Source: Chloroflexota bacterium
GTDB taxonomy: Bacteria; Chloroflexota; UBA11872; UBA12225
Assembly: GCA_030447525.1 (NCBI GenBank)
Contig: JAUJOR010000003.1
Coordinates: forward strand, 62,194-126,193
Direction: 5' to 3'
DNA length: 64,000 nucleotides
Position numbers and translations under genes: made by a program. Position 1 is the stretch's first letter, and the number at the start of each line of letters is the position of its first letter. This document shows positions 24,451 through 53,104 of the stretch, piece after piece. The notes beneath the pieces are model-generated. The model was not told the DNA's origin. It did not search any database and worked only from the letters and a program-made list of their open reading frames with translations.

Positions 24451-24617
24451 AACTACACCTTGACCGTGCCGGTCACCCCTGACGCATGAACCTGCGGCCG
24501 ACACCGGCCGACTCCCGGATGGGCGCGTCTCTTTTCACTGCACTGCTCCATGGCCCTACGGGCCACCACCGACGGGGGGAAAGCGGCACCACAGGCGCTA
24601 TTTTTGGAGCACCACGC
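24451..24617. repeat. direct repeat copy 2 (~167 bp); first copy at 14253-14418
   Basis: See copy 1. It lies ~280 bp upstream of the HExxH protein gene. Confidence 0.85.
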
Positions 24618-24897
24618 TTACATTCGCTGGCCCAGGCGTGCCAAGGAAGGTGAATGGTTCCGAGAAACTGCGGCTGTTGGTGCGGTCAGGTGGGCGTGGC
24701 GCTGCCGCCCGGCCGCTGCGTCGCGCTCGTCCTCTACGGCACACCCTCCACGATCCGCTCGCAGGAACGGCGTGACTCAGAATGCTTGGCGCAATGCGTC
24801 CTCCGGCTCGATCCACCACCGGGGCCTACGTGGCGTAACGCGCCCTCCAGGCGCCCCATTCCGGCCGTACACTGGCGCGGGATCGGAGGCGAAGGCG

Positions 24898-25863
24898 ATG
24901 GATGCCCCCAAGTGGACCAGCTGGACGATCGGCGTCACCGAGATCGCCAACCGCTTCCATGTGGTCAACAACCTGGCCTCGTGGAACGTCTCGGCGCGCC
25001 CGCACTACAACTGCGCTTGGATCGAGGAGACCGGTCCGCTGAGCGCAGCTGAGCGAGAGGCGCTGGACGCAGCTCGCGAGGTCTTCCCGCGGTACGGAGG
25101 TGGGCCGAGCGCCGTGTGGGGGGCGTTCATCGCCGCCCAGGACGAGGCTGACGCCTGGGCCCGCGCGGCGCGGCTGGTGACGAGCGAAGATCTCCAGACG
25201 CTCCGGCAGGCGATGGCGACGCTCGGGCCGCGGTTCCGCCTGCTGTGGGAGCGCGATCGGCCACGCCTCGAGACCGTCCGGGAGCGGCTGGAGCCGGCGC
25301 TGCGCGCGCCGGGGATTGCCGAGGCGGTGGCGAAGCTGGGCCGCTACCTTGCATCCGCAGCTCCGAGTGTACGGATCGAGCTGCTGATGAGCCGGGGCAG
25401 CGGCTCCGCCGGCGGGGCCAACGGCGGGCGGATCACGCTGGAGGTGCAGGAGTGCGATGACATGGCCGAGGCGGCCGACGTGGTGGTGCACGAGCTGGGG
25501 CACTTCATGGAGCGGGCGCACTTCCTGCCGCGCTACCGGTCGCTTGCCGAGCGGCACCGCCTCCTCGAGCGGCGTGGCGCGCCCGGGTGGGACGCGTTCG
25601 TGCTCGTCAAGGAGGCCCTGCACCTGTCCCTGTGCCCCAGCGGGTGCCTCAGCCCGCTGTACGGCGTCCCTATCCGCGACCACGCCGGGGACGCGACCCG
25701 GGCGCGCGGGGCCGGCTACCCTCGCCAGGCGGGGCTCCTCGAGCTGACTTCCCTGGTGCTGCCGCTGGTGCGCGAGTATCTGGACCCGGAGCGGCCGGTG
25801 GACGACGCCCTGCTCGCGTCCGGTATCGCCGCCTTCGAGGCCAATCCCCACACGCTCGCCTGA
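24898..25863 (+). CDS. hypothetical protein with an HExxH zinc-metallopeptidase-like motif
   Basis: RBS GGAGGCGAAGGCG precedes the ATG. 321 aa. VVVHELGHFMERAHFLP contains HELGH followed by a downstream E/H. Confidence 0.5.
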   Translation: MDAPKWTSWTIGVTEIANRFHVVNNLASWNVSARPHYNCAWIEETGPLSAAEREALDAAREVFPRYGGGPSAVWGAFIAAQDEADAWARAARLVTSEDLQTLRQAMATLGPRFRLLWERDRPRLETVRERLEPALRAPGIAEAVAKLGRYLASAAPSVRIELLMSRGSGSAGGANGGRITLEVQECDDMAEAADVVVHELGHFMERAHFLPRYRSLAERHRLLERRGAPGWDAFVLVKEALHLSLCPSGCLSPLYGVPIRDHAGDATRARGAGYPRQAGLLELTSLVLPLVREYLDPERPVDDALLASGIAAFEANPHTLA

Positions 25864-25883: not shown

Positions 25884-27038
25884 CTACCTCCGCCCGCCGG
25901 CCAGGCTCTCGCCCGCGATCTTCGGGACCGGCCCAGATCCCCGGCGACGCAATCGGTGAGGCGGCAGGGGGTCGCCGGCGAGATTGGCTTCGCGGGCGCG
26001 CTGGGCGGCGAGTCGACGGTACTCGGGACTGAGGCGCTTGAGCGCCTGGTGGGCCTCGTGCTTCACCTGCGGACTCGGGTCGCCGCGCAGGGCGGCCTGG
26101 AGCACGTCGCAGGCAAGCTGAAGGTAGGGCGCGTGACCGAGTCGCTGCGCGGCGGCGACGCGCACGTGCGCATCTGGGTCGTGTTCGGCGATGTGCGCCA
26201 GCAGGGGCAACACGTCTTGGCCTCGGAGCCCCCCTACGGCAGCGCGCCGCACCAGTGCGCTTGAGTCTTCGAGCGCCGCCTCCCGGAATGCTGCCTGCAC
26301 CATCGGGTCATCTGCACGATGACCGAGCGCCTGCGCCGCGGTCCAGCGAACGCGCCGGTTGGCGTCACCCCGGAACAGCTGAATCAGCAGCGGCTGCACG
26401 TCCAGCTGGAGTGGCTCCGGCTTGCAGCGTTCGCACATCAAGGCGTGGAGCGCGCCGCGCCGGACGTCGGCGTCAGGGTCGTGCAGCGCCACGTGCGTGA
26501 GCTGGGGCACGCACGCGTCGGTGGCGTGATGATCGATGAAGCCGAGCGCGGCCCCGCGGATGCGCGCGTCCGGGTCGGACAACGCCTCCAGCGCGACGCG
26601 CATGCCGGAGGGGCCGGCGGCGGCCAGCGACTCCATCGCGCGTCGGCGCGCAGACCAGTCGATCGGCCGCTCGATGGCCCGTTGGAGCAGGGTCCGCAAT
26701 GGCGCCAGCTCGACCGCTTGACGCAAGCGCGTCCAGCTCGGGAAACCATGCTCCCGTGCGATGACCAGCTGCGCCTGGGACAGCGTGAGCGCCCGGGCGG
26801 CCTGTGCCGCCGGCCGTTGGGAGGGGGCGGGCGTCCCTGGGAAGCAGCGCTCCAGCCGCGCCTGGGCGGCCGAATCGCCACGCACCACCGCGGCCAGCAG
26901 CTCCTTTGCTTGCTTCCTCAGCTGCTCCAGAGATGGCTGCGGCGGCAGCGCGCGGGCGGCCGGCGGCGAGGGCTGAGGTGTAACCGGAACGGGCGGGGGC
27001 AACGACGGCGGGGCGAGTGGTGCGGGCTGTGGGCCCAC
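25884..27038 (-). CDS. HEAT-repeat (PBS-lyase-like) protein
   Basis: Repeated DPDARIRGAALGFI / DPDADVRRGALHAL / DPDAHVRVAAAQRLG units. Pro-rich N-terminus. GTG start with RBS AGGTAGG. Confidence 0.55.
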   Translation of the reverse strand: MGPQPAPLAPPSLPPPVPVTPQPSPPAARALPPQPSLEQLRKQAKELLAAVVRGDSAAQARLERCFPGTPAPSQRPAAQAARALTLSQAQLVIAREHGFPSWTRLRQAVELAPLRTLLQRAIERPIDWSARRRAMESLAAAGPSGMRVALEALSDPDARIRGAALGFIDHHATDACVPQLTHVALHDPDADVRRGALHALMCERCKPEPLQLDVQPLLIQLFRGDANRRVRWTAAQALGHRADDPMVQAAFREAALEDSSALVRRAAVGGLRGQDVLPLLAHIAEHDPDAHVRVAAAQRLGHAPYLQLACDVLQAALRGDPSPQVKHEAHQALKRLSPEYRRLAAQRAREANLAGDPLPPHRLRRRGSGPVPKIAGESLAGGRR

Positions 27039-27208
27039 GGGACACCTACCTTTCTTGGTGGCCCAATGTCCGCGTCGCAGGCCGAAAGGAGGTCGGTTGT
27101 GGCACGGTAGCCAGAGGCAGCCTTGGGTGGGCTCTGCCCTTCCCGCGGACCGGCGGCGCCCCACGCGCCATACTGATTGTAGAACGTCGGGGCCCCAACC
27201 GTGCCCCC

Positions 27209-27326
27209 GGGGCTTTGCCCAAAAAGTCCGCTGAGACACCAATCGGTGGATTGCGCCCAGGTTAGCGTTGCCGCTGCTGGCGCTGTACTTACGCGCTACT
27301 GGCACATGTTGGGCAAAGCCTGCCCC
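27209..27326. promoter_or_regulatory. 12-bp inverted repeat GGGGCTTTGCCC ... GGGCAAAGCC(tg)CCCC flanking ~90 bp in the HEAT/hen1 divergent intergenic region
   Basis: The arms could form a long-range stem in a leader RNA or serve as paired protein-binding sites. Confidence 0.3.
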
Positions 27327-27433
27327 CGGAGGGCGTCGGCTTACCATGTGCGTCGGGTCGACCCGGTAAGTGTCACCGGCACGACAATCCTGGCGAGAGG
27401 CGGTGCTTCAGTATTGCGCTAAGCGAGCGGTCA

Positions 27434-27482
27434 ACGTACGCTCCTCAGACCAATACAGACGTACGCTCCTCAGTCCAATACA
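27434..27482. promoter_or_regulatory. two tandem 24-nt direct repeats (ACGTACGCTCCTCAGaCCAATACA / ...tCCAATACA) ending 12 nt upstream of the hen1 ATG
   Basis: Near-perfect tandem duplication with a 25-bp period. Local GC is lower than the surrounding sequence. Confidence 0.4.
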
Positions 27483-27494
27483 TAAGAGAGAACG

Positions 27495-28904
27495 ATGCTG
27501 CTCACCATCGCCACCACCCATCGCCCGGCCACGGACCTGGGATATCTGCTGCACAAGAACCCGGCCCGGGTGCAGTCGTTCCCACTGTCGTTTGGTCGGG
27601 CGCACGTCTTCTACCCGGAGGCGACCCCGGAGCGCTGCTCGGCGGCTCTGTTGCTGGACGTGGATCCGGTCGGCCTGGTGCGCGGCCGTGGTGCCGGACC
27701 CACCGGGGGCGACGGCGCCTCGCTCGCGCAGTACGTCAACGACCGGCCCTACGTTGCCTCCTCGTTCCTGAGCGTTGCCCTCTCACAGGTCTACGGCAGC
27801 GCCCTCTCGGGACGGAGCAAGGAGCGCCCCGAGCTGGTCGAGCAGGAGCTGCCGTTTGAGGCGACGCTGGCCGTGCTCCCCTGCCGAGGCGGCGAGGGGT
27901 TCCTGCGCCGCCTGTTCGAGCCACTCGGCTATGGCGTGACGGCGCAGGGCCACCCGCTGGACGAGCAGTTCCCCGCCTGGGGTCAGAGCCGCTACTTTAC
28001 CGTCACCCTGCGCGCCACCACGCCGCTGCAGCGCCTGCTCACACATCTCTACGTGCTTGTCCCGGTGCTTGATGACGAGAAGCACTACTGGGTGGGAGAG
28101 GACGAGGTGCAGAAGCTGCTGCGCCACGGCGCGGGCTGGCTGGCGATGCACCCCCAGCGCGAGCAGATCGCCCGGCGCTACCTGCGCCACCAGTCCCGCC
28201 TGACGCGTGCCGCCCTGGCGCGCCTGGTGGAGGAGGACACACCCGATCCGGCTGCGGCCGATGAGGTCCACGCAGGGGAAGAGGCGGCCGTCGAGCGGCC
28301 CCTCGGTCTCGACGAGCAGCGGCAGGCGGCGGTCATGGCCGCCCTCCACGCCGCCGGCGCGCGTCGCGTCATCGACCTGGGCTGCGGCGAGGGCAAGCTC
28401 GTCCAGGCCCTGCTGAACGACCCCGCCTTCGGCGAGGTGGCGGGGATGGACGTGTCGTCGCGCGCCCTCGCCCTTGCCGAGCAGCGCCTGGATGTCGAGC
28501 GCCTGGCAGCGTCGAACGGGCAGCGCCTCCGTCTCTTCCAGGGCACACTCACCTACCGTGACCGGCGCATCGAGGGCTACGATGCCGCCACTGTGGTCGA
28601 GGTGATCGAGCACCTCGACCCGGCCCGGCTGCGCGCCTTCGAGCGCGTCCTGTTCGGCGAGGCACGGCCGGCCACCGTCATCGTCACCACGCCAAACGTG
28701 GAGTACAACGCCCGCTTCGAGCACCTGCCGGCCGGCCGTTTCCGCCATCACGACCACCAATTCGAGTGGACTCGGGCGGAGTTCGAGGCGTGGGCCCACG
28801 ACGTGGCGGCGCGCCACAGCTACACCGTGCAGGTCGCGCCGATTGGCCCGCTCGATCCAGAGCTTGGCCCGCCAACACAGATGGGAGTCTTCCGCCGTGG
28901 CTGA
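27495..28904 (+). CDS. hen1: 3'-terminal RNA ribose 2'-O-methyltransferase Hen1 (bacterial type)
   Basis: 469 aa. N-terminal Hen1 RNA-binding/ligase-activating domain (MLLTIATTHRPATDLGYLLHKNP...). C-terminal SAM methyltransferase (VIDLGCGEGKLVQALLND, VIEHLD, HHDHQFEW). Confidence 0.85.
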   Translation: MLLTIATTHRPATDLGYLLHKNPARVQSFPLSFGRAHVFYPEATPERCSAALLLDVDPVGLVRGRGAGPTGGDGASLAQYVNDRPYVASSFLSVALSQVYGSALSGRSKERPELVEQELPFEATLAVLPCRGGEGFLRRLFEPLGYGVTAQGHPLDEQFPAWGQSRYFTVTLRATTPLQRLLTHLYVLVPVLDDEKHYWVGEDEVQKLLRHGAGWLAMHPQREQIARRYLRHQSRLTRAALARLVEEDTPDPAAADEVHAGEEAAVERPLGLDEQRQAAVMAALHAAGARRVIDLGCGEGKLVQALLNDPAFGEVAGMDVSSRALALAEQRLDVERLAASNGQRLRLFQGTLTYRDRRIEGYDAATVVEVIEHLDPARLRAFERVLFGEARPATVIVTTPNVEYNARFEHLPAGRFRHHDHQFEWTRAEFEAWAHDVAARHSYTVQVAPIGPLDPELGPPTQMGVFRRG

Positions 28905-31590
28905 GCCGGTTGCGCCCGACCCATCGACAGGGGAGGCGCCGCGCGCCGCACGCGAGCCGGTGCGCCTGACCATCCCCGAGCTGTCGCTCGTCGTCCTTAT
29001 CGGCGCCTCCAGCTCCGGCAAGTCCACCTTCGCGCGCCGGCACTTCCTGCCCACCGAGGTGCTCTCGTCGGACGCCTGCCGCGCGCTGGTCAGCGACGAC
29101 GAGAACAGCCTGGACGCCACCGGCGACGCCTTCGAGGTGCTGCACGCCATCGCCGCCAAGCGCCTGGCGCGGGGGCGCCTGACGGTGGTGGACGCCACCA
29201 ACGTGCAGCCCGAGGCGCGGCGACCGCTGGTGGCGCTGGCCCGCGCCCACTACGTGCAGCCGGTGGCGATCGTCTTCGACCTGCCCGAGAAGCTGTGCCA
29301 GGAGCGAAGCCGGCAGCGACCCGATCGGGACTTCGGTGCGCACGTGATCCGGCGCCAGGCGATGGCCCTACGCCGCTCGCTCCGCGGCCTGGCCGGCGAA
29401 GGCTTCCGGCAGGTGCACGTCCTGCACTCACCGGACGAGGCGGGGACCGCGGTTGTGGAACGGCAGCGCCTACGCTGCAACCGCACCGATCTCGGCGGCC
29501 CCTTTGACATCATCGGCGACGTCCATGGCTGCTTCGACGAGCTGGTGACGCTCCTCCAGACGCTCGGCTACGGCGTGGCAATGACCGCCGGCGAGAACGC
29601 CCATCCCGGCTTTGACGTGCAGCCGCCGGAAGGGCGCCGCGCCGTCTTCCTCGGGGACCTGGTCGACCGCGGCCCGCGCTCGCCCGACGTGCTGCGGCTG
29701 GTGATGCCTATGGCGGCGGCGGGGACGGCCCTTGTCGTGGTAGGCAACCACGACGACAAGCTGCGCCGCAAGCTGGCCGGACGCGACGTGCAGCTGACGC
29801 ACGGCCTGGCGGAGACGCTGGCGCAGCTCGAGCCCGAGTCCCCCGCCTTTAAGGAGCAGGTCGCCACGTTCATCGACGGCCTGACCAGCCATTACGTACT
29901 CGACGGTGGCAGGCTGGTGGTGGCGCACGCCGGCATGAAGGCGGAGATGCAGGGGCGCGCCACCGGCCGCGTACGGGACTTCGCCTTGTACGGCGAGACC
30001 ACGGGCGAGATCGACGAATTCGGCCTGCCCGTGCGCCTCAATTGGGCCGCCGACTACCGCGACAAGGCCATGGTCGTCTACGGGCACACGCCGGTCCCCG
30101 CGGCGCGGTGGGTCAACAACACGATCGACGTCGACACCGGCTGCGTCTTTGGCGGCCGGCTCACCGCCTTGCGCTACCCCGAGAAGGAGCTCGTCTCCGT
30201 TCCCGCGGCACGGGTCTACTACGCCCCGGCTCGCCCGCTGGTCTCGACCACAACGCCCGCTGGGTCAGGCGCAGACGCCGGGGCGTCAGAGACGCCGGCG
30301 CGCGATCCCCAGCTCCTGGACGCTGGCGACGTGCTGGGCCGTCACGTGGTGGAGACGCGGCTGCACCATTCCGTCACTATCCGCGAGGAGCAGTCGGCGG
30401 CGGCGCTGGAGGTGATGAGCCGCTTCGCCGCCGATCCCCGGTGGCTGATCTACCTCCCGCCCACCATGTCGCCCGGCGAGACCAGCCGGCAGCCGGGACT
30501 GCTGGAGCACCCGGCGGAGGCGCTCGCCTACTACCGCCGCGAGGGCCTGGCACAGGTAGTCTGCGAGGAGAAGCACATGGGCTCGCGCGCCGTGCTGGTC
30601 GTGTGCCGCACGCCGGACGTGGCGCGCAGACGCTTCGGCGTGGAGGTAGACGGTGATGATATCCACGGCGGGACGGCCGCCGGCATCTGCCACACGCGTA
30701 CCGGCCGCCACTTCTTCGAGGATCGAGCGCTTGAGCGTGCCGTCCTGACGCGCGTGGCCGCTGCGGTGGAACGGGCGGGCCTCTGGGGAGAGCTGGAGAC
30801 CGACTGGCTCTGTCTGGATGCCGAGCTGATGCCGTGGTCGGTCAAGGCGCAGGCGCTGCTCCAGGAGCAGTACGCTGCGGTCGGCGCGGCCGCGCGGGCG
30901 GCCCTCCCCACGGCTCTCGACGCGCTTGCCCAGGCAGCCGCCCGCAGCAACGACGGCGCTGATGGTGGCGCCGCCGCCCTCCTGGCGCGGTATCAGACGC
31001 GGCTCGTCGACGCCGAGCGCTTTGTCGCCGCCTACCGGCGCTACTGCTGGCCCGTCCATTCCCTCGCCGACCTCAAGCTGGCACCCTTCCACCTCCTGGC
31101 GAGCGAGGGCGCCGTCCACGTTGGCCGAGACCACGTGTGGCACATGGAGACGCTGGCCCGGCTCGCCGCCGTGGATCCGGAGCTCTTCCTGGCCACGCCG
31201 TACAAGGTAGTGTCACTCGCCGACGACGCGTCCATGCAGGACGCCATCGCCTGGTGGGAGGCCCTCACCCTGCGTGGCGGCGAAGGCATCGTCGTCAAGC
31301 CCCTGGACGTTGTCGCCAGGGGCCGGCGCGGCCTGCTCCAACCGGCCATCAAGTGCCGGGGACGGGAATACCTGCGCATCATCTATGGCCCGGAATACAC
31401 TGAGCCCGAGCAACTGGAGCGTCTGCGCCAGCGCAGTCTTGCCGCCAAGCGATCGCTCGCGCTGCGCGAGTTCGCGCTCGGTATGGAGGGCCTGCACCGC
31501 CTCGTGGAGGGGGCGCCGCTCTACCGCGTCCACGAGTGCGTCTTTGGCGTGCTGGCCCTGGAGAGCGAGCCGGTAGATCCGCGACTTTAG
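28897..31590 (+). CDS. pnkp: polynucleotide kinase-phosphatase Pnkp (kinase, phosphoesterase and ligase-like adenylyltransferase domains)
   Basis: Residues are collinear with the Clostridium thermocellum Pnkp N-terminus (LTIPELSLVVLIGASSSGKSTFARRHF P-loop). Calcineurin-like phosphoesterase motifs GDVHGC, GDLVDRG, GNHD are present. C-terminal nucleotidyltransferase KHMGSR carries the lysine motif. The GTG at 28897 overlaps the hen1 stop by 8 nt. Comparison with the C. thermocellum Pnkp N-terminus suggests the true start may be the GTG at 28960. Confidence 0.85.
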   Translation: MAEPVAPDPSTGEAPRAAREPVRLTIPELSLVVLIGASSSGKSTFARRHFLPTEVLSSDACRALVSDDENSLDATGDAFEVLHAIAAKRLARGRLTVVDATNVQPEARRPLVALARAHYVQPVAIVFDLPEKLCQERSRQRPDRDFGAHVIRRQAMALRRSLRGLAGEGFRQVHVLHSPDEAGTAVVERQRLRCNRTDLGGPFDIIGDVHGCFDELVTLLQTLGYGVAMTAGENAHPGFDVQPPEGRRAVFLGDLVDRGPRSPDVLRLVMPMAAAGTALVVVGNHDDKLRRKLAGRDVQLTHGLAETLAQLEPESPAFKEQVATFIDGLTSHYVLDGGRLVVAHAGMKAEMQGRATGRVRDFALYGETTGEIDEFGLPVRLNWAADYRDKAMVVYGHTPVPAARWVNNTIDVDTGCVFGGRLTALRYPEKELVSVPAARVYYAPARPLVSTTTPAGSGADAGASETPARDPQLLDAGDVLGRHVVETRLHHSVTIREEQSAAALEVMSRFAADPRWLIYLPPTMSPGETSRQPGLLEHPAEALAYYRREGLAQVVCEEKHMGSRAVLVVCRTPDVARRRFGVEVDGDDIHGGTAAGICHTRTGRHFFEDRALERAVLTRVAAAVERAGLWGELETDWLCLDAELMPWSVKAQALLQEQYAAVGAAARAALPTALDALAQAAARSNDGADGGAAALLARYQTRLVDAERFVAAYRRYCWPVHSLADLKLAPFHLLASEGAVHVGRDHVWHMETLARLAAVDPELFLATPYKVVSLADDASMQDAIAWWEALTLRGGEGIVVKPLDVVARGRRGLLQPAIKCRGREYLRIIYGPEYTEPEQLERLRQRSLAAKRSLALREFALGMEGLHRLVEGAPLYRVHECVFGVLALESEPVDPRL

Positions 31591-35296: not shown

Positions 35297-36652
35297 TCAA
35301 GAGAGGGAATCCTCGGGGGTCATAGCCTCGAGGCGGCCCTTCAGCCCCTGCAGAAAGCGCCCCACCGGCAGCCCATCGCAGACGCGATGATCAAAGCTGA
35401 GGCAGAGGTTGAGGCGGGGGCGCACGGCGATGGCGTCGTCCGGCAAAACGACCACCCGCTTCACGATGGCCTCCATGGTCAAGATGGCCGCCTGGGGCTG
35501 GTTGATGATGGGCATGGAGAGCACGGAGCCCAGGGCGCCGGTATTGTTGAGCGTGAAGGTGCCCTCCCGGACGTCGTCCGGCGTCAGCTGCCCCTTTCTC
35601 GCTCGCGTGACCAGGTCGTCCAGGGCACGGGCCAGCCCGGCGACGCTCCTGGAATCGGCGTCGCGGATGACCGGGACGACGAGGCCGTCCTCCAGAGCGA
35701 TGGCCACGCCGAGGTGGATGCGCTTCTTGAGTATCACCTGCCCATCGCGCCAGGTGCTGTTCAGGATGGGATGCTCCCGTAACGTCTCCACTACCGCCTT
35801 GGCGACGAAGGGGAGATACGTCAGGTCGAAGCCTTCCCGGGCGCGGAACGGGGCGCGCACCGCCTCGCGCCACTTGACCAGGCCATTGACGTCGGCCTCG
35901 ACGTAGGTCCAGGCGTGGGGCGCCGTCGTCACGCTGCGCACCATGTGCTCGGCAATGGCGCGACGCACCGCAGTCAAGGGCAGCGGCTCCTCGTCCGTTC
36001 CCGCGGCGGGCGGCCCTTCCCCCGGCCGGTGAGGCGCTCCGTCGACTTCAGGGGGCCGGCGTGGCTGGAGCGGCCCGCTCGGGGCGGACGCCGCAAGGGG
36101 GGCGCCCGGAGGGTCCGGGGCCACTCCCAGGCGAGTCTGGCCCGGGCGCGCCTGTCCCGGGCGCGTCTGCCCAGAGTGCGCCTGCCCAGAGTGCGCTTGC
36201 CCAGAGTGCGCCTGTGCAGAGCGCGTCTGGATGTGGGCCAGCAGGTCCTCTTTGCGCACCCGCCCGTCGGCGCCGGTGCCCTGGATAGCGCTCACCTCCA
36301 CGCCGTGCTCCCGGGCCAGGCGCCGCACCAGGGGTGAGGATCGGTGGGGCCGCGTCTCCGGGCGCGCCGGGGCCCCGGGCTCGCTCCCCTGGCTTGAGGC
36401 AGGGAGGGAAGCCGGGGAGGTGGGCTCGATGACGGCCATCTCCGCCCCCACTCTGACCGTCTGTCCCTCCGGCACGCTGATGCGCGCCACCACGCCGGCG
36501 GCGGGGGACGGCAGCTCGCTGTTCACCTTGTCCGTGATCACCTCCACCAGGGGCTCGTACGCCTCGACGCGCTCCCCCTCGCGCTTGAGCCAGCGGGTGA
36601 CGGTACCCTCGACGACGCTCTCGCCCAGCCTGGGCATGGTGACGCTGACCAT
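35297..36652 (-). CDS. 2-oxoacid dehydrogenase E2 component (dihydrolipoyl acyltransferase)
   Basis: N-terminal lipoyl domain (MPRLGESVVEGTV...ITDKV). E3-binding domain (SPLVRRLAREHGV). Catalytic domain with DHRVCDG. It overlaps the lipA start. Confidence 0.8.
   Translation of the reverse strand: MVSVTMPRLGESVVEGTVTRWLKREGERVEAYEPLVEVITDKVNSELPSPAAGVVARISVPEGQTVRVGAEMAVIEPTSPASLPASSQGSEPGAPARPETRPHRSSPLVRRLAREHGVEVSAIQGTGADGRVRKEDLLAHIQTRSAQAHSGQAHSGQAHSGQTRPGQARPGQTRLGVAPDPPGAPLAASAPSGPLQPRRPPEVDGAPHRPGEGPPAAGTDEEPLPLTAVRRAIAEHMVRSVTTAPHAWTYVEADVNGLVKWREAVRAPFRAREGFDLTYLPFVAKAVVETLREHPILNSTWRDGQVILKKRIHLGVAIALEDGLVVPVIRDADSRSVAGLARALDDLVTRARKGQLTPDDVREGTFTLNNTGALGSVLSMPIINQPQAAILTMEAIVKRVVVLPDDAIAVRPRLNLCLSFDHRVCDGLPVGRFLQGLKGRLEAMTPEDSLS
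36140..36232. repeat. six tandem, imperfect copies of a 15-bp unit inside the E2 linker, encoding (A/T)(H/R)(S/P)GQ pentapeptides
   Basis: On the + strand GCGCCTGCCCAGAGT-like units repeat ~6 times. In the protein this gives AHSGQAHSGQAHSGQTRPGQARPGQTRLG. Confidence 0.6.
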
Positions 36653-36750
36653 GAGGTAGACAGTGTAGTACGCCCCCAGTGGCCGGGCTAGCGGCCGGCG
36701 GACGCGGCCGTTCCCCGAGCGTTGGGGCGGACGCTACAATCCGGGACGGT

Positions 36751-52452: not shown

Positions 52453-52983
52453 TCAACTGGTACGGCTGAACGGGAGAGTCAGCCCTTGGCCGGGCTCAGG
52501 GCCGGCGCTGACGCTGGAGCGGAGCGAAGGGGAAGGATCCGTCGCTCCAGGGCCGGGAGCCGCTGCGCTCGTGGTCAGCGCCCCACCAGGATCGGCGCGC
52601 GGATAGCGGTCGGCGTCGCGCCCGCGGTACTTGGCCAGCGTGCGCTCGAGGGCGTCTTGCAGGTCGATCCCCTGAGCGTTGGCCAGGCAGATCATGGTGT
52701 ACAAGAGGTCGGCCATCTCCAGGCCCAGGTCCTGCTCCGGCTCGTCCGGCTTCTTAGGCTTTTCGCCGTAGAGATGGTTCACGACGCGGGCCAGCTCGCC
52801 GAGCTCTTCCGTCATCCGGGCGAGCTGCGCCAGGGGCTGCCAGTACGACCACCCCTGGTCGCGCATCCAGGTGTCCACCAGGGCCTGGGCGTCGCGCACG
52901 GTCAGGGCAGGTTGTCCCTCGCCGCCGGGGGCGTTCGTTTCAACCGATGGGCCTCCCGCCGGATCAGTCACTGAGTTTCCCAT
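52453..52983 (-). CDS. MazG-like nucleotide pyrophosphohydrolase domain protein
   Basis: LAQLARMTEELGELARVV...LGLEMADLLYTMICLANAQGIDLQDALERTLAKY is the MazG/NTP-PPase EExxE helix pair. The C-terminal ~60 aa are low complexity. Confidence 0.6.
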   Translation of the reverse strand: MGNSVTDPAGGPSVETNAPGGEGQPALTVRDAQALVDTWMRDQGWSYWQPLAQLARMTEELGELARVVNHLYGEKPKKPDEPEQDLGLEMADLLYTMICLANAQGIDLQDALERTLAKYRGRDADRYPRADPGGALTTSAAAPGPGATDPSPSLRSSVSAGPEPGQGLTLPFSRTS

Positions 52984-53104
52984 CAGTCTCCCATCAGTCT
53001 CCCATCAGGTCGCTCCATCGCGTCATTGTCCCACACCCGGACCGTAGCGCATCGGACATCCCCTGCCGGCGCGGGGCTGCAGGCATCGTGAGGGCAGGCA
53101 AGGC

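What the first reader, a model, noticed from the sequence alone, without database searches (positions are those of the whole stretch)
27038..31590. Complete Hen1-Pnkp RNA repair cassette in hen1-then-pnkp order with overlapping genes and a repeat-rich upstream region
The 469-aa Hen1 and ~897-aa Pnkp are collinear with the characterised bacterial RNA-repair pair. The pnkp GTG overlaps the hen1 stop. The 457-bp region upstream of hen1 carries two tandem 24-nt direct repeats ending 12 nt before the ATG, and a 12-bp long-range inverted repeat. Both suggest dedicated regulation.
Basis: partly seen in the sequence, partly recalled or inferred. Interest (0 to 1): 0.5.

Follow-up and report, generated by a model that had tools for sequence, protein, structure and literature searches.

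The report
Ordinary Hen1-Pnkp RNA repair operon
This is a textbook two-gene bacterial RNA-repair operon (hen1 then pnkp), and the "regulatory" repeats upstream of it are best explained as a small transposon insertion and a recent lineage-specific 25-bp duplication.

Summary
hen1 (27495-28904, 469 aa) and pnkp (GTG 28897-31590, 897 aa) are full-length orthologues of the characterised Clostridium thermocellum and Anabaena enzymes. They score 711 and 1384 bits on TIGR04074 and TIGR04075. All kinase, phosphatase and ligase catalytic residues checked are present, including the adenylatable lysine (K559 = Cth K531). The hen1-then-pnkp order and the 8-nt overlap are the family norm: 142 of 142 related loci carrying both genes have this order.

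The inference of dedicated regulation is not supported. The 12-bp inverted repeat is the pair of terminal inverted repeats of a 110-bp MITE-like element (27211-27320). That element is flanked by a perfect 9-bp duplication, is absent from the same site in a close relative (L166), and has ends resembling IS903.

The 24-nt tandem repeat (period 25) is real and is shared with that relative. It is absent at 85% Hen1 identity and from 165 other hen1 loci, and it diverges at about the neutral rate.

The only conserved part of the spacer (27039-27175) is the 5' leader of the divergent HEAT-repeat gene.

Interest is low. The cassette is already known.

The parts
27495..28904 (+). [quoted passage not shown] The N-terminal ligase-activating domain is aa 1-244 (27495-28226). 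The C-terminal methyltransferase domain is aa 262-466 (28278-28892).
   Evidence: Pfam Hen1_L E 1.9e-115 plus methyltransferase domains. TIGR04074 equivalog 710.6 bits against a cut-off of 340. PDB 4dqz (CthHen1-N) E 1.8e-94 and 3jwh (AvaHen1 MTase) E 3.6e-78. Motifs DLGCGEG at 294, EVIEH at 369 and HHDHQFEW at 418.
28897..31590 (+). pnkp: trifunctional polynucleotide kinase (aa 22-190, 28960-29466), 2',3'-phosphatase (aa 194-445, 29476-30231) and ligase/adenylyltransferase (aa 473-897, 30313-31587).
   Evidence: TIGR04075 1384 bits against a cut-off of 750. Pfam AAA_33, Metallophos and PNKP_ligase, the last at E 4.9e-178. PDB 4gp6, 4j6o, 4drf and 3ty5. All Cth catalytic residues map: K42, S43, D59, R62, R137, R141, R144, D208, H210, D254, R258, N284, H285, H344, H397, D413, K559. 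The 897-aa product is held as an NCBI-sourced protein.
28883..28904 (+). Translational coupling junction: Shine-Dalgarno GGGAG (28883-28887), pnkp GTG (28897) and hen1 TGA (28902-28904), giving an 8-nt overlap GTGGCTGA.
   Evidence: Read directly from the sequence. Gene calls in relatives L162, L164 (8 nt) and L165 (10 nt) show the same kind of overlap.
27434..27483 (+). 25-bp tandem duplication (two copies; 24 nt alike with 1 mismatch) directly upstream of the hen1 ribosome-binding region TAAGAGAGAACG.
   Evidence: Present in sister contig L166 with copy 1 identical and copy 2 carrying 3 substitutions plus a GG insertion. Absent from all other hen1 loci.
27211..27320 (.). 110-bp MITE-like element with terminal inverted repeats GGCTTTGCCCAAAAAGT and ACATGTTGGGCAAAGCC.
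   Evidence: The whole element plus one flanking repeat (119 nt) is missing from the orthologous site in L166. Its TIR matches 13 of 18 positions of the IS903 TIR GGCTTTGTTGAATAAATC. There is no frame-specific GC3 signal, so it does not look coding.
27202..27210 (.). Left copy of the 9-bp target-site duplication TGCCCCCGG.
   Evidence: It abuts the left TIR.
27321..27329 (.). Right copy of the 9-bp target-site duplication TGCCCCCGG.
   Evidence: It abuts the right TIR. L166 has a single, diverged copy (TGCCGCTCG) at this site.
27039..27175 (-). Conserved non-coding 5' leader of the divergent HEAT-repeat gene. It is predicted to form a hairpin that sequesters the Shine-Dalgarno sequence. A -10-like TACAAT lies at 27181-27176.
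   Evidence: Leader versus CDS nucleotide identity is 89.7% versus 75.3% for L168, 81.7% versus 74.8% for L169, and 94% versus 83.8% for L167. Alignment A4 and RNAalifold. No reading frame is conserved. No Rfam family matches.
25884..27038 (-). Divergently transcribed HEAT-repeat protein (384 aa). It is the neighbour that defines the spacer.
   Evidence: Pfam HEAT_2 E 7e-22. Homologues P0124-P0142 share the N-terminus MG.QP.

Best explanation
**The operon.** The locus is a canonical, intact hen1-pnkp RNA repair operon.
- By homology to the C. thermocellum and Anabaena system, Pnkp heals broken RNA ends. Its kinase phosphorylates the 5'-OH and its Mn-dependent phosphatase removes the 2',3'-cyclic phosphate.
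- The Hen1 C-terminal domain methylates the 3'-terminal ribose 2'-OH.
- The Pnkp ligase domain, adenylylated on K559 and activated by the Hen1 N-terminal domain, seals the break. The junction is then resistant to re-cleavage.
- The two genes are translationally coupled through an 8-nt overlap, consistent with the (Pnkp)2(Hen1)2 stoichiometry.

**The 456-nt upstream spacer.** It is a composite with no demonstrable dedicated regulator.
1. 27039-27175 is the conserved 5' leader of the divergent HEAT gene.
2. 27202-27329 is a 110-bp IS903-like MITE with its 9-bp target duplication. It inserted after the split from the closest sequenced relative.
3. 27434-27483 is a 25-bp tandem duplication that arose in the recent common ancestor of this genome and L166, and it drifts at about the neutral rate.

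**Shown versus inferred.** Shown here: gene identity, catalytic residues, gene order and overlap, presence or absence of the elements in relatives, and divergence rates. Inferred: enzymatic activities (by orthology), the transposition origin of the indel, and neutrality of the duplication.
For: **Cassette.**
- Family and structure matches.
- Catalytic residues: using residue roles from PMC3675462 and PMC3902929.
- Gene order is hen1 then pnkp in 142 loci and never reversed.

**MITE.**
- TIRs abut perfect 9-bp direct repeats.
- A 119-nt gap lies at exactly that site in L166, a relative with a 95%-identical HEAT protein and about 96.6% nucleotide identity over hen1.
- The TIR resembles that of IS903, and the IS903 ends were verified in L170.

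**Tandem repeat.**
- It is shared with L166, where copy 2 has 3 substitutions in 24 nt plus a 2-nt indel.
- Neutral third-codon-position divergence is 7.5-9.3%.
- It is absent from the 56 nt upstream of hen1 in L161 (85% identity), from L162-L165, and from all 165 loci held at that point.
- Tandem repeats upstream of hen1 are not a family trait.

**Other negative results.**
- No Rfam hit.
- No sigma-70 consensus promoter.
- The sigma-54-like match sits inside the MITE and scores at chance level.
- The upstream and downstream neighbour genes tested (HEAT, the 24550-25863 ORF, the TPP enzyme) are not syntenic in any other hen1 locus, so the cassette moves as a two-gene module.
Against: - The duplication has survived in two lineages, and copy 1 is identical in both (0 of 25 differences). 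The expectation is about 2, so P is about 0.11. Weak constraint on copy 1 cannot be excluded.
- The hen1 leader 27392-27515, which includes the repeats, folds somewhat better than shuffles (z = -2.25).
- The MITE is single-copy in the 64 kb available, and no parent transposase was seen.
- The 'empty site' in L166 matches the target duplication at only 6 of 9 positions.
- Only one close relative with alignable spacer DNA could be retrieved.
Confidence: 0.78

Rival explanations
1. The two 24-nt units are a tandem operator bound by a dedicated transcription factor, or an RNA-binding regulator site in the 5' UTR, that controls hen1-pnkp expression. This is what the first reader proposed.
For: The repeat is far beyond chance. 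It lies directly against the ribosome-binding region, 12 nt from the ATG. It is retained in a second lineage, with copy 1 unchanged. Each unit starts with the palindrome CGTACG, read directly from the sequence.
Against: The repeat is not found upstream of hen1 in any other locus, including the 80-86% identical orthologues. Copy 2 has 3 substitutions plus an indel between the two sister lineages, which is at or above the neutral rate. No further copy of the motif occurs in the 64-kb window, even allowing 3 mismatches. I did not identify a regulator gene next to the operon: the neighbours examined are a HEAT-repeat protein, unannotated ORFs and metabolic genes. The 25-bp period puts the two units on different faces of the helix.
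Confidence: 0.1
2. The repeats and flanking inverted repeats fold into a cis-acting structured 5' UTR, such as a riboswitch or thermosensor, that governs hen1 translation.
For: The 124-nt stretch 27392-27515 folds with z = -2.25. The sequence CAGUAUUG at 27409-27416 is complementary to the CAAUAC in each repeat unit.
Against: No Rfam family matches. The larger folds have z-scores of only -1.5 to -1.9. The one substitution in the 5' arm in L166 (CAGTATTG to CAGCATTG) breaks a predicted pair without compensation. The nested 'long-range' stem is a MITE that is absent from L166. The element is not present in other hen1 loci.
Confidence: 0.06
3. The 119-nt difference from L166 is a deletion in L166, by slippage or recombination between the two 9-nt direct repeats, rather than an insertion in the window's lineage. 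The inverted repeat would then be an ancestral hairpin.
For: Deletion between direct repeats leaves exactly the same footprint: one repeat copy remains. No second copy of the element or parent IS was found.
Against: The inverted repeats abut the direct repeats on both sides to the base. That arrangement is expected for TIR plus target-site duplication, but not for a random deletion; my own rough estimate of its chance probability is about 1e-5. The TIR begins GGCTTTG like IS903, whose family makes 9-bp duplications (the 9-bp figure rests on my knowledge of IS903 and ISfinder). The more distant L168 appears to have only about 40 nt between the HEAT leader and a possible hen1 ATG.
Confidence: 0.12

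Closest known systems
Clostridium thermocellum / Anabaena variabilis Pnkp-Hen1 RNA repair system (TIGR04075 / TIGR04074; PDB 4gp6, 4j6o, 3ty5, 4drf, 4dqz, 3jwh)
   Same: Same two-gene, co-oriented hen1-pnkp cassette. Same domain order in both proteins. All catalytic residues examined are conserved. The alignment is end-to-end with no large insertions.
   Different: Pnkp has a 21-aa N-terminal extension relative to CthPnkp. The host is a 70% GC genome that is probably Chloroflexota, judged from the names given to the nearest homologues. No activity has been measured.
Pnkp1-Rnl-Hen1 three-protein system of Capnocytophaga gingivalis (PDB 4xru; PMC4411300)
   Same: Same overall chemistry: heal, methylate, seal.
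   Different: That system splits the ligase into a separate Rnl protein, and its hen1 is unlinked from the other genes. Here the ligase is fused in Pnkp, and similarity to 4xru chains is marginal (E 4.5e-07 and 1.6e-05). This locus is not a member.
MITEs derived from IS5-family, IS903-group insertion sequences
   Same: Short (110 bp) and non-coding. It has 12/17-bp terminal inverted repeats starting GGCTTTG (13 of 18 identical to the IS903 TIR), a perfect 9-bp target-site duplication, and an empty site in a close relative.
   Different: Only one copy is seen in the DNA available, and no cognate transposase was found. Beyond the first 7 nt the TIR similarity is modest.

Membership tests
Bacterial Pnkp (TIGR04075) | Three catalytic modules in the order kinase, metallophosphoesterase, ligase/adenylyltransferase. 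| tested here: met
   Pfam AAA_33 (aa 49-180 of the longer ORF), Metallophos and PNKP_ligase. TIGR04075 covers 2-851 of 851 model positions at 1384 bits. PDB domain matches.
Bacterial Pnkp (TIGR04075) | Kinase P-loop Lys21/Ser22, general base Asp38, Arg41, and lid arginines (roles from PMC3902929). | tested here: met
   K42, S43, D59, R62, R137, R141 and R144 in a gap-free alignment to 4gp6.
Bacterial Pnkp (TIGR04075) | Phosphatase essential residues Asp187, His189, Asp233, Arg237, Asn263, His264, His323, His376 and Asp392 (PMC3675462). | tested here: met
   D208, H210, D254, R258, N284, H285, H344, H397 and D413 in a gap-free alignment to 4j6o.
Bacterial Pnkp (TIGR04075) | Adenylatable motif-I lysine in the ligase domain (Cth Lys531 in KHMGS; the residue number is from my knowledge of the Shuman-lab papers). 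| tested here: met
   K559 in CEEKHMGS aligns with chain residue 88 of 4drf, which corresponds to Cth 531.
Bacterial Pnkp (TIGR04075) | Kinase, phosphatase and adenylyltransferase activities, and Hen1-dependent sealing. | not testable with these tools
   This needs biochemistry.
Bacterial Hen1 (TIGR04074) | N-terminal Pnkp-ligase-activating domain (Hen1_L). | tested here: met
   PF12623 covers 1-241 of 242 positions, E 1.9e-115. 4dqz E 1.8e-94 over aa 1-230.
Bacterial Hen1 (TIGR04074) | C-terminal AdoMet-dependent, Mn-dependent 2'-O-methyltransferase with the AdoMet motif and Glu/Glu/His/His metal ligands (the ligand list is from memory of Chan 2009 and Jain & Shuman 2011; those papers were not held). 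| tested here: met
   DLGCGEG at 294, EVIEH at 369 and HHDHQFEW at 418 are conserved in the alignment with 3jwh. The individual ligand assignment was not verified against a paper.
Pnkp-Hen1 cassette | Adjacent, co-oriented ORFs with hen1 upstream. | tested here: met
   The same order is found in 142 of 142 related loci that hold both genes. See also PMC3675462 Fig. 1 legend.
MITE (IS5 family, IS903 group) | Terminal inverted repeats flanked by a direct target-site duplication of the family's length (9 bp). | tested here: met
   12 perfect / 17 imperfect TIR. TGCCCCCGG lies on both sides, abutting the TIRs.
MITE (IS5 family, IS903 group) | Presence/absence polymorphism with an empty site in a related genome. 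| tested here: met
   A 119-nt gap lies at the site in L166. The empty site matches 6 of 9 positions of the duplication.
MITE (IS5 family, IS903 group) | Multiple copies in the genome and TIRs matching a resident autonomous IS. | tested here: inconclusive
   There is no second copy and no IS903-like transposase in the 64-kb window or in the other loci held, and none in plasmids. The rest of the genome could not be searched.
Known cis-regulatory RNA (Rfam 15) | A match to a curated covariance model in the hen1 upstream region. | tested here: not met
   No hit at gathering score across the window. Only chance-level hits with E of 0.078 or worse in 26950-27560.

The most novel reading that the evidence does not exclude
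HEAT-repeat proteins may be unrecognised accessory or regulatory partners of Hen1-Pnkp.
- Here, a HEAT gene with an unusually conserved, probably structured 5' leader (27039-27175, no Rfam family) is divergently paired with hen1. The same pairing is seen in the sister contig L166 and possibly in L168.
- In five other bacterial groups, a different HEAT_2 family sits inside the operon between hen1 and pnkp.
- In that reading, the shared spacer would be a genuine co-regulatory region, and the leader a new cis-regulatory RNA.
Probability: 0.1. Interest if true: 0.5.

Novelty: already known. Interest (0 to 1): 0.12.

Why it matters
**The cassette.** It is one more instance of a well-characterised system with thousands of homologues (8000 candidates at E <= 1e-30). 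It adds nothing new mechanistically.

**Value of the re-analysis.** It is mostly corrective. Repeats in a long spacer looked like operators. Comparison with one close relative shows they are a transposon footprint and a young duplication.

**Leads that might matter.**
- The conserved non-coding leader of the neighbouring HEAT gene.
- The recurrent presence of HEAT-repeat and Thg1-like genes in hen1 operons elsewhere. This could point to extra components of bacterial tRNA repair.

Tried and rejected
- **Sigma-54 promoter.** TGGCACATGTTGGGC at 27300 has the right spacing. However, equally good matches are as frequent on the control strand across 147 hen1 upstream regions (4 versus 4). It also lies inside the MITE, which L166 lacks.
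- **Sigma-70 scan.** No consensus site was found. A relaxed scan gives only weak candidates: GACAAT at 27383 for hen1 and TACAAT at 27181 for the HEAT gene.
- **Rfam.** Nothing at gathering or permissive thresholds.
- **Small ORFs in the spacer.** There is no frame-specific GC3 signal and no tblastx conservation. The 41-codon uORF in the HEAT leader carries a premature stop in three of four relatives.
- **Repeat motif elsewhere.** None in the window or in the 165 loci held at that point. The spacer has no paralogous copy in the window.
- **Synteny.** HEAT and the 24550-25863 ORF gave no hit in the other hen1 loci; the TPP enzyme gave one weak hit (25% identity, L037).
- **HEAT family membership.** I tested whether the window's HEAT protein belongs to the HEAT family found inside hen1-pnkp operons elsewhere. 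The HMM gave no hit, and BLASTP showed only generic repeat similarity.
- **PADLOC.** Only a generic methyltransferase hit, and no defence-system context.
- **Plasmid collection.** No matches for the MITE or the leader.
- **Retrieving closer relatives.** The best Hen1 relative (P0002, 86%) has no retrievable DNA.
- **Literature.** The key Hen1 papers and the Burroughs & Aravind RNA-repair survey are not held.

Full report
**1. What is in the sequence**

The window (70% GC) carries two co-oriented genes on the + strand. The first is ATG 27495..28904, encoding 469 aa. The second is an ORF whose longest form starts at TTG 28843.
- The in-frame GTG at 28897 gives an 897-aa product. That sequence is held, residue for residue, as an NCBI-sourced protein in the collection (P0121).
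- A GGGAG Shine-Dalgarno sits 9 nt upstream, at 28883-28887.
- This start overlaps the hen1 stop by 8 nt (GTGGCTGA).
- Gene calls in the closest relatives show the same 8-10 nt overlap (L162, L164, L165).

Upstream, the divergent minus-strand gene is a 384-aa HEAT-repeat protein.
- Its start is GTG 27038, preceded by AAGAAAGGTAGG.
- This start corresponds to the conserved family N-terminus 'MG.QP'.
- The spacer is therefore 27039-27494, which is 456 nt.

**2. Identity of the two genes**

- Hen1 matches Pfam Hen1_L over its full length (E 1.9e-115) plus class-I methyltransferase models.
- Hen1 scores 710.6 bits on the NCBIfam equivalog TIGR04074, against a cut-off of 340.
- Pnkp matches AAA_33, Metallophos and PNKP_ligase (E 4.9e-178).
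- Pnkp scores 1384 bits on TIGR04075, against a cut-off of 750.

Against solved structures, every domain aligns essentially without gaps to the C. thermocellum or Anabaena proteins:

| Domain | PDB entry | E-value |
|---|---|---|
| Pnkp kinase | 4gp6 | 1e-62 |
| Pnkp phosphatase | 4j6o | 7e-104 |
| Pnkp ligase | 4drf / 3ty5 | 1e-164 |
| Hen1 N-terminal domain | 4dqz | 2e-94 |
| Hen1 methyltransferase | 3jwh | 4e-78 |

I mapped the residues shown to be essential in CthPnkp onto this protein.
- Kinase (roles from PMC3902929): K21, S22, D38, R41, R116, R120 and R123 correspond to K42, S43, D59, R62, R137, R141 and R144.
- Phosphatase (roles from PMC3675462): D187, H189, D233, R237, N263, H264, H323, H376 and D392 correspond to D208, H210, D254, R258, N284, H285, H344, H397 and D413.
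- Ligase: the motif-I lysine sits in KHMGS and corresponds to K559.
- All of these residues are conserved.

**3. Is the arrangement special?**

No.
- The Hen1 search returned 8000 candidates, all with E <= 1e-30.
- Of 165 related loci fetched, 142 contain both genes, and all 142 have hen1 upstream of pnkp on the same strand. The median distance between the ends of the tblastn matches is 16 nt.
- The flanking genes tested from this window are not syntenic in any other hen1 locus. These are the HEAT protein, an unannotated 437-aa ORF and a TPP enzyme; lipoate genes lie further downstream.
- This fits a two-gene module that moves horizontally.

**4. The upstream repeats: are they real?**

The tandem repeat is real.
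- The copies are 27434-27457 and 27459-27482: 24 nt with one mismatch and a period of 25. The second copy ends 12 nt before the ATG.
- None of 300 shuffles produced a direct repeat of that length.

The 12-bp inverted repeat is also real: 27211-27222 GGCTTTGCCCAA and 27309-27320 TTGGGCAAAGCC, extendable to 17 nt at 88%.
- Alone it is only moderately unusual. It has p about 0.014 in shuffles, yet 7 of 140 equal-sized tiles of this window have one as long.

**5. What the repeats are**

The decisive evidence came from a close relative.
- A homologue of the HEAT protein (P0124, 95% identity) lies on Logan contig L166, which also carries the divergent hen1 start.
- The two spacers align at about 92-95% identity, apart from one 119-nt gap in L166.

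The gap corresponds to window 27202-27320 or, equivalently, 27211-27329.
- It removes the whole segment bounded by the inverted repeat, plus one copy of a perfect 9-nt direct repeat.
- That direct repeat, TGCCCCCGG, abuts both arms at 27202-27210 and 27321-27329.
- Terminal inverted repeats, an abutting 9-bp duplication and an empty site in a relative together form the signature of a non-autonomous transposable element (MITE).
- The TIR begins GGCTTTG, like IS903. I confirmed IS903's 18-bp ends, GGCTTTGTTGAATAAATC, on a 1057-bp copy in a Klebsiella plasmid.
- The window's TIR matches that sequence at 13 of 18 positions.
- That IS903-group elements make 9-bp duplications rests on my own knowledge.

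- The sigma-54-like match I had noticed (27300-27315) also lies inside it. It scores no better than chance matches.
- Caveats: only one copy is visible in the DNA available, and no parent transposase was seen. The empty site matches the duplication at only 6 of 9 positions.
- A deletion in L166 between the two direct repeats remains a minority alternative.

The tandem duplication is present in L166 as well, so it is neither an assembly artefact nor brand new.
- Copy 1 is identical in the two lineages. Copy 2 differs at 3 of 24 positions and carries a 2-nt insertion.
- The neutral yardstick is third-codon-position divergence between the same two sequences: 9.3% in hen1 and 7.5% in the HEAT gene.
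- The repeats taken together (3 of 49 positions) and the adjacent spacer (7.5%) are indistinguishable from neutral.
- The next relatives lack the repeat entirely:
  - L161 (85% Hen1 identity) has unrelated sequence in the 56 nt before the ATG.
  - L162 (82%) has a Thg1-like gene ending 2 nt before hen1.
  - L163 (84%) has an HD plus kinase gene 38 nt upstream.
  - L164 and L165 have short, unrelated spacers.
- The motif is absent from the 165 loci then held, and tandem repeats before hen1 are not a family trait.
- This window contains at least one other short intergenic tandem repeat next to a gene start (52974-53008). That fits a background of slippage duplications.

**6. The only conserved part of the spacer belongs to the other gene**

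Window 27039-27175, read on the minus strand, is the region upstream of the HEAT gene's start codon. In the more distant relatives it is more conserved than the HEAT coding sequence itself:

| Relative | Leader identity | CDS identity |
|---|---|---|
| L168 | 89.7% | 75.3% |
| L169 | 81.7% | 74.8% |
| L167 | 94% (50 nt available) | 83.8% |

- No reading frame is preserved. Stops and non-triplet indels occur in all frames.
- RNAalifold predicts a hairpin, CCUUUCGGCC...GGGCC..GAAAGG, that pairs the Shine-Dalgarno sequence. It is invariant in all five sequences.
- With so few sequences there is no covariation.
- No Rfam family matches, and nhmmer finds the element only in front of this HEAT family.
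- This is a candidate cis-regulatory leader for the HEAT gene, not for hen1.
- L168's contig ends, in window orientation, with ...CGACGATGCT. That matches the hen1 start context ACGATGCT only about 40 nt beyond the leader.
- This hints that the ancestral hen1-HEAT spacer was about 170 nt and was later expanded by insertions. The hint rests on eight bases.

**7. Mechanism**

By orthology, the operon encodes the (Pnkp)2(Hen1)2 repair machine.
- It heals 2',3'-cyclic-phosphate and 5'-OH breaks.
- It methylates the 3'-terminal ribose 2'-OH.
- It seals the break with the Hen1-activated, lysine-adenylylated ligase, so the junction cannot be cut again (PMC3675462).

The 8-nt overlap with an internal Shine-Dalgarno implies translational coupling. 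This is an inference.

How the operon is transcribed is not established.
- The best weak promoter candidate is -35 TCGACC at 27358 and -10 GACAAT at 27383. It is conserved in L166.
- If used, it would put both repeat units in a roughly 100-nt 5' UTR.

**8. Verdict**

- The gene identification is right.
- The 'dedicated regulation' reading is not supported.
- The cassette is already known and ordinary.
- The side observations are modest leads and are listed separately: the HEAT leader, and the HEAT and Thg1-like genes inside hen1 operons of other phyla.

Noticed in passing
window 27039-27175 (minus strand): The 5' leader of the divergent HEAT-repeat gene is more conserved at nucleotide level than the gene itself in distant relatives: 89.7% versus 75.3% for L168 and 81.7% versus 74.8% for L169. 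It is non-coding, has no Rfam match, and is predicted to form an invariant hairpin that sequesters the Shine-Dalgarno sequence. It is a candidate undescribed cis-regulatory element.
   Followed up: partly
L010 5383-6315; L011 5248-6168; L052 2131-3006; L049 2138-3097; L111 5395-6264; L015 5392-7578 and 7606-8658; L144 5395-6099; L077 4474-6246; L101 4573-4923: A homologous HEAT_2-repeat protein family of about 250 aa is encoded immediately downstream of hen1. In five loci it lies between hen1 and pnkp; in three there is no pnkp within the fetched DNA; one (L101) is cut by the contig end. It occurs in 9 of 165 loci, in cyanobacteria, Verrucomicrobiota, Gemmataceae and Armatimonadota among others. 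The window's own HEAT protein is not a detectable member.
   Followed up: partly
L162 574-1440; L034 5934-6707; also L004, L011, L018, L025, L040, L119, L151: Thg1-like (tRNA 5'-end repair) genes lie directly next to hen1 in 9 of 165 loci. They are either just upstream (2-nt gap in L162) or between hen1 and pnkp. No paper in the searchable library mentions Hen1, Pnkp and Thg1 together. The window has no Thg1 homologue.
   Followed up: partly
L163 91-1236: In the 84%-identical relative, an HD-domain plus AAA_33 kinase protein (HD-Pnk-like end-healing architecture) is encoded 38 nt upstream of hen1.
   Followed up: no
L003, L015, L034, L051, L055, L077, L078, L090, L107, L108, L110, L143, L144, L146: Fourteen loci have a full-length Hen1 (60-67% identical) with at least 600 nt of downstream DNA but no Pnkp match. 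Published descriptions say Pnkp and Hen1 are always in one operon. In L034 a stand-alone AAA_33 kinase and a Thg1-like gene follow hen1 instead.
   Followed up: partly
window 52974-53008: There is another intergenic tandem repeat: 11 nt x 3.2 copies, AGTCTCCCATC, 95% matches. It overlaps the start region of the minus-strand ORF 52453-52983.
   Followed up: no
window 36127-36230: This is the highest-scoring tandem array in the window (15/30-nt period, TRF score 108). It lies inside the 2-oxoacid dehydrogenase E2 gene (35297-36733, minus strand) and may correspond to a repeated inter-domain linker; this was not checked.
   Followed up: no
L168 1-45: The contig end reads ...CGACGATGCT in window orientation, matching the hen1 start context ACGATGCT about 40 nt beyond the HEAT leader. 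This suggests the HEAT-hen1 divergent pairing extends to a 71%-identical relative, with a spacer of only about 170 nt. The evidence is only eight bases.
   Followed up: partly
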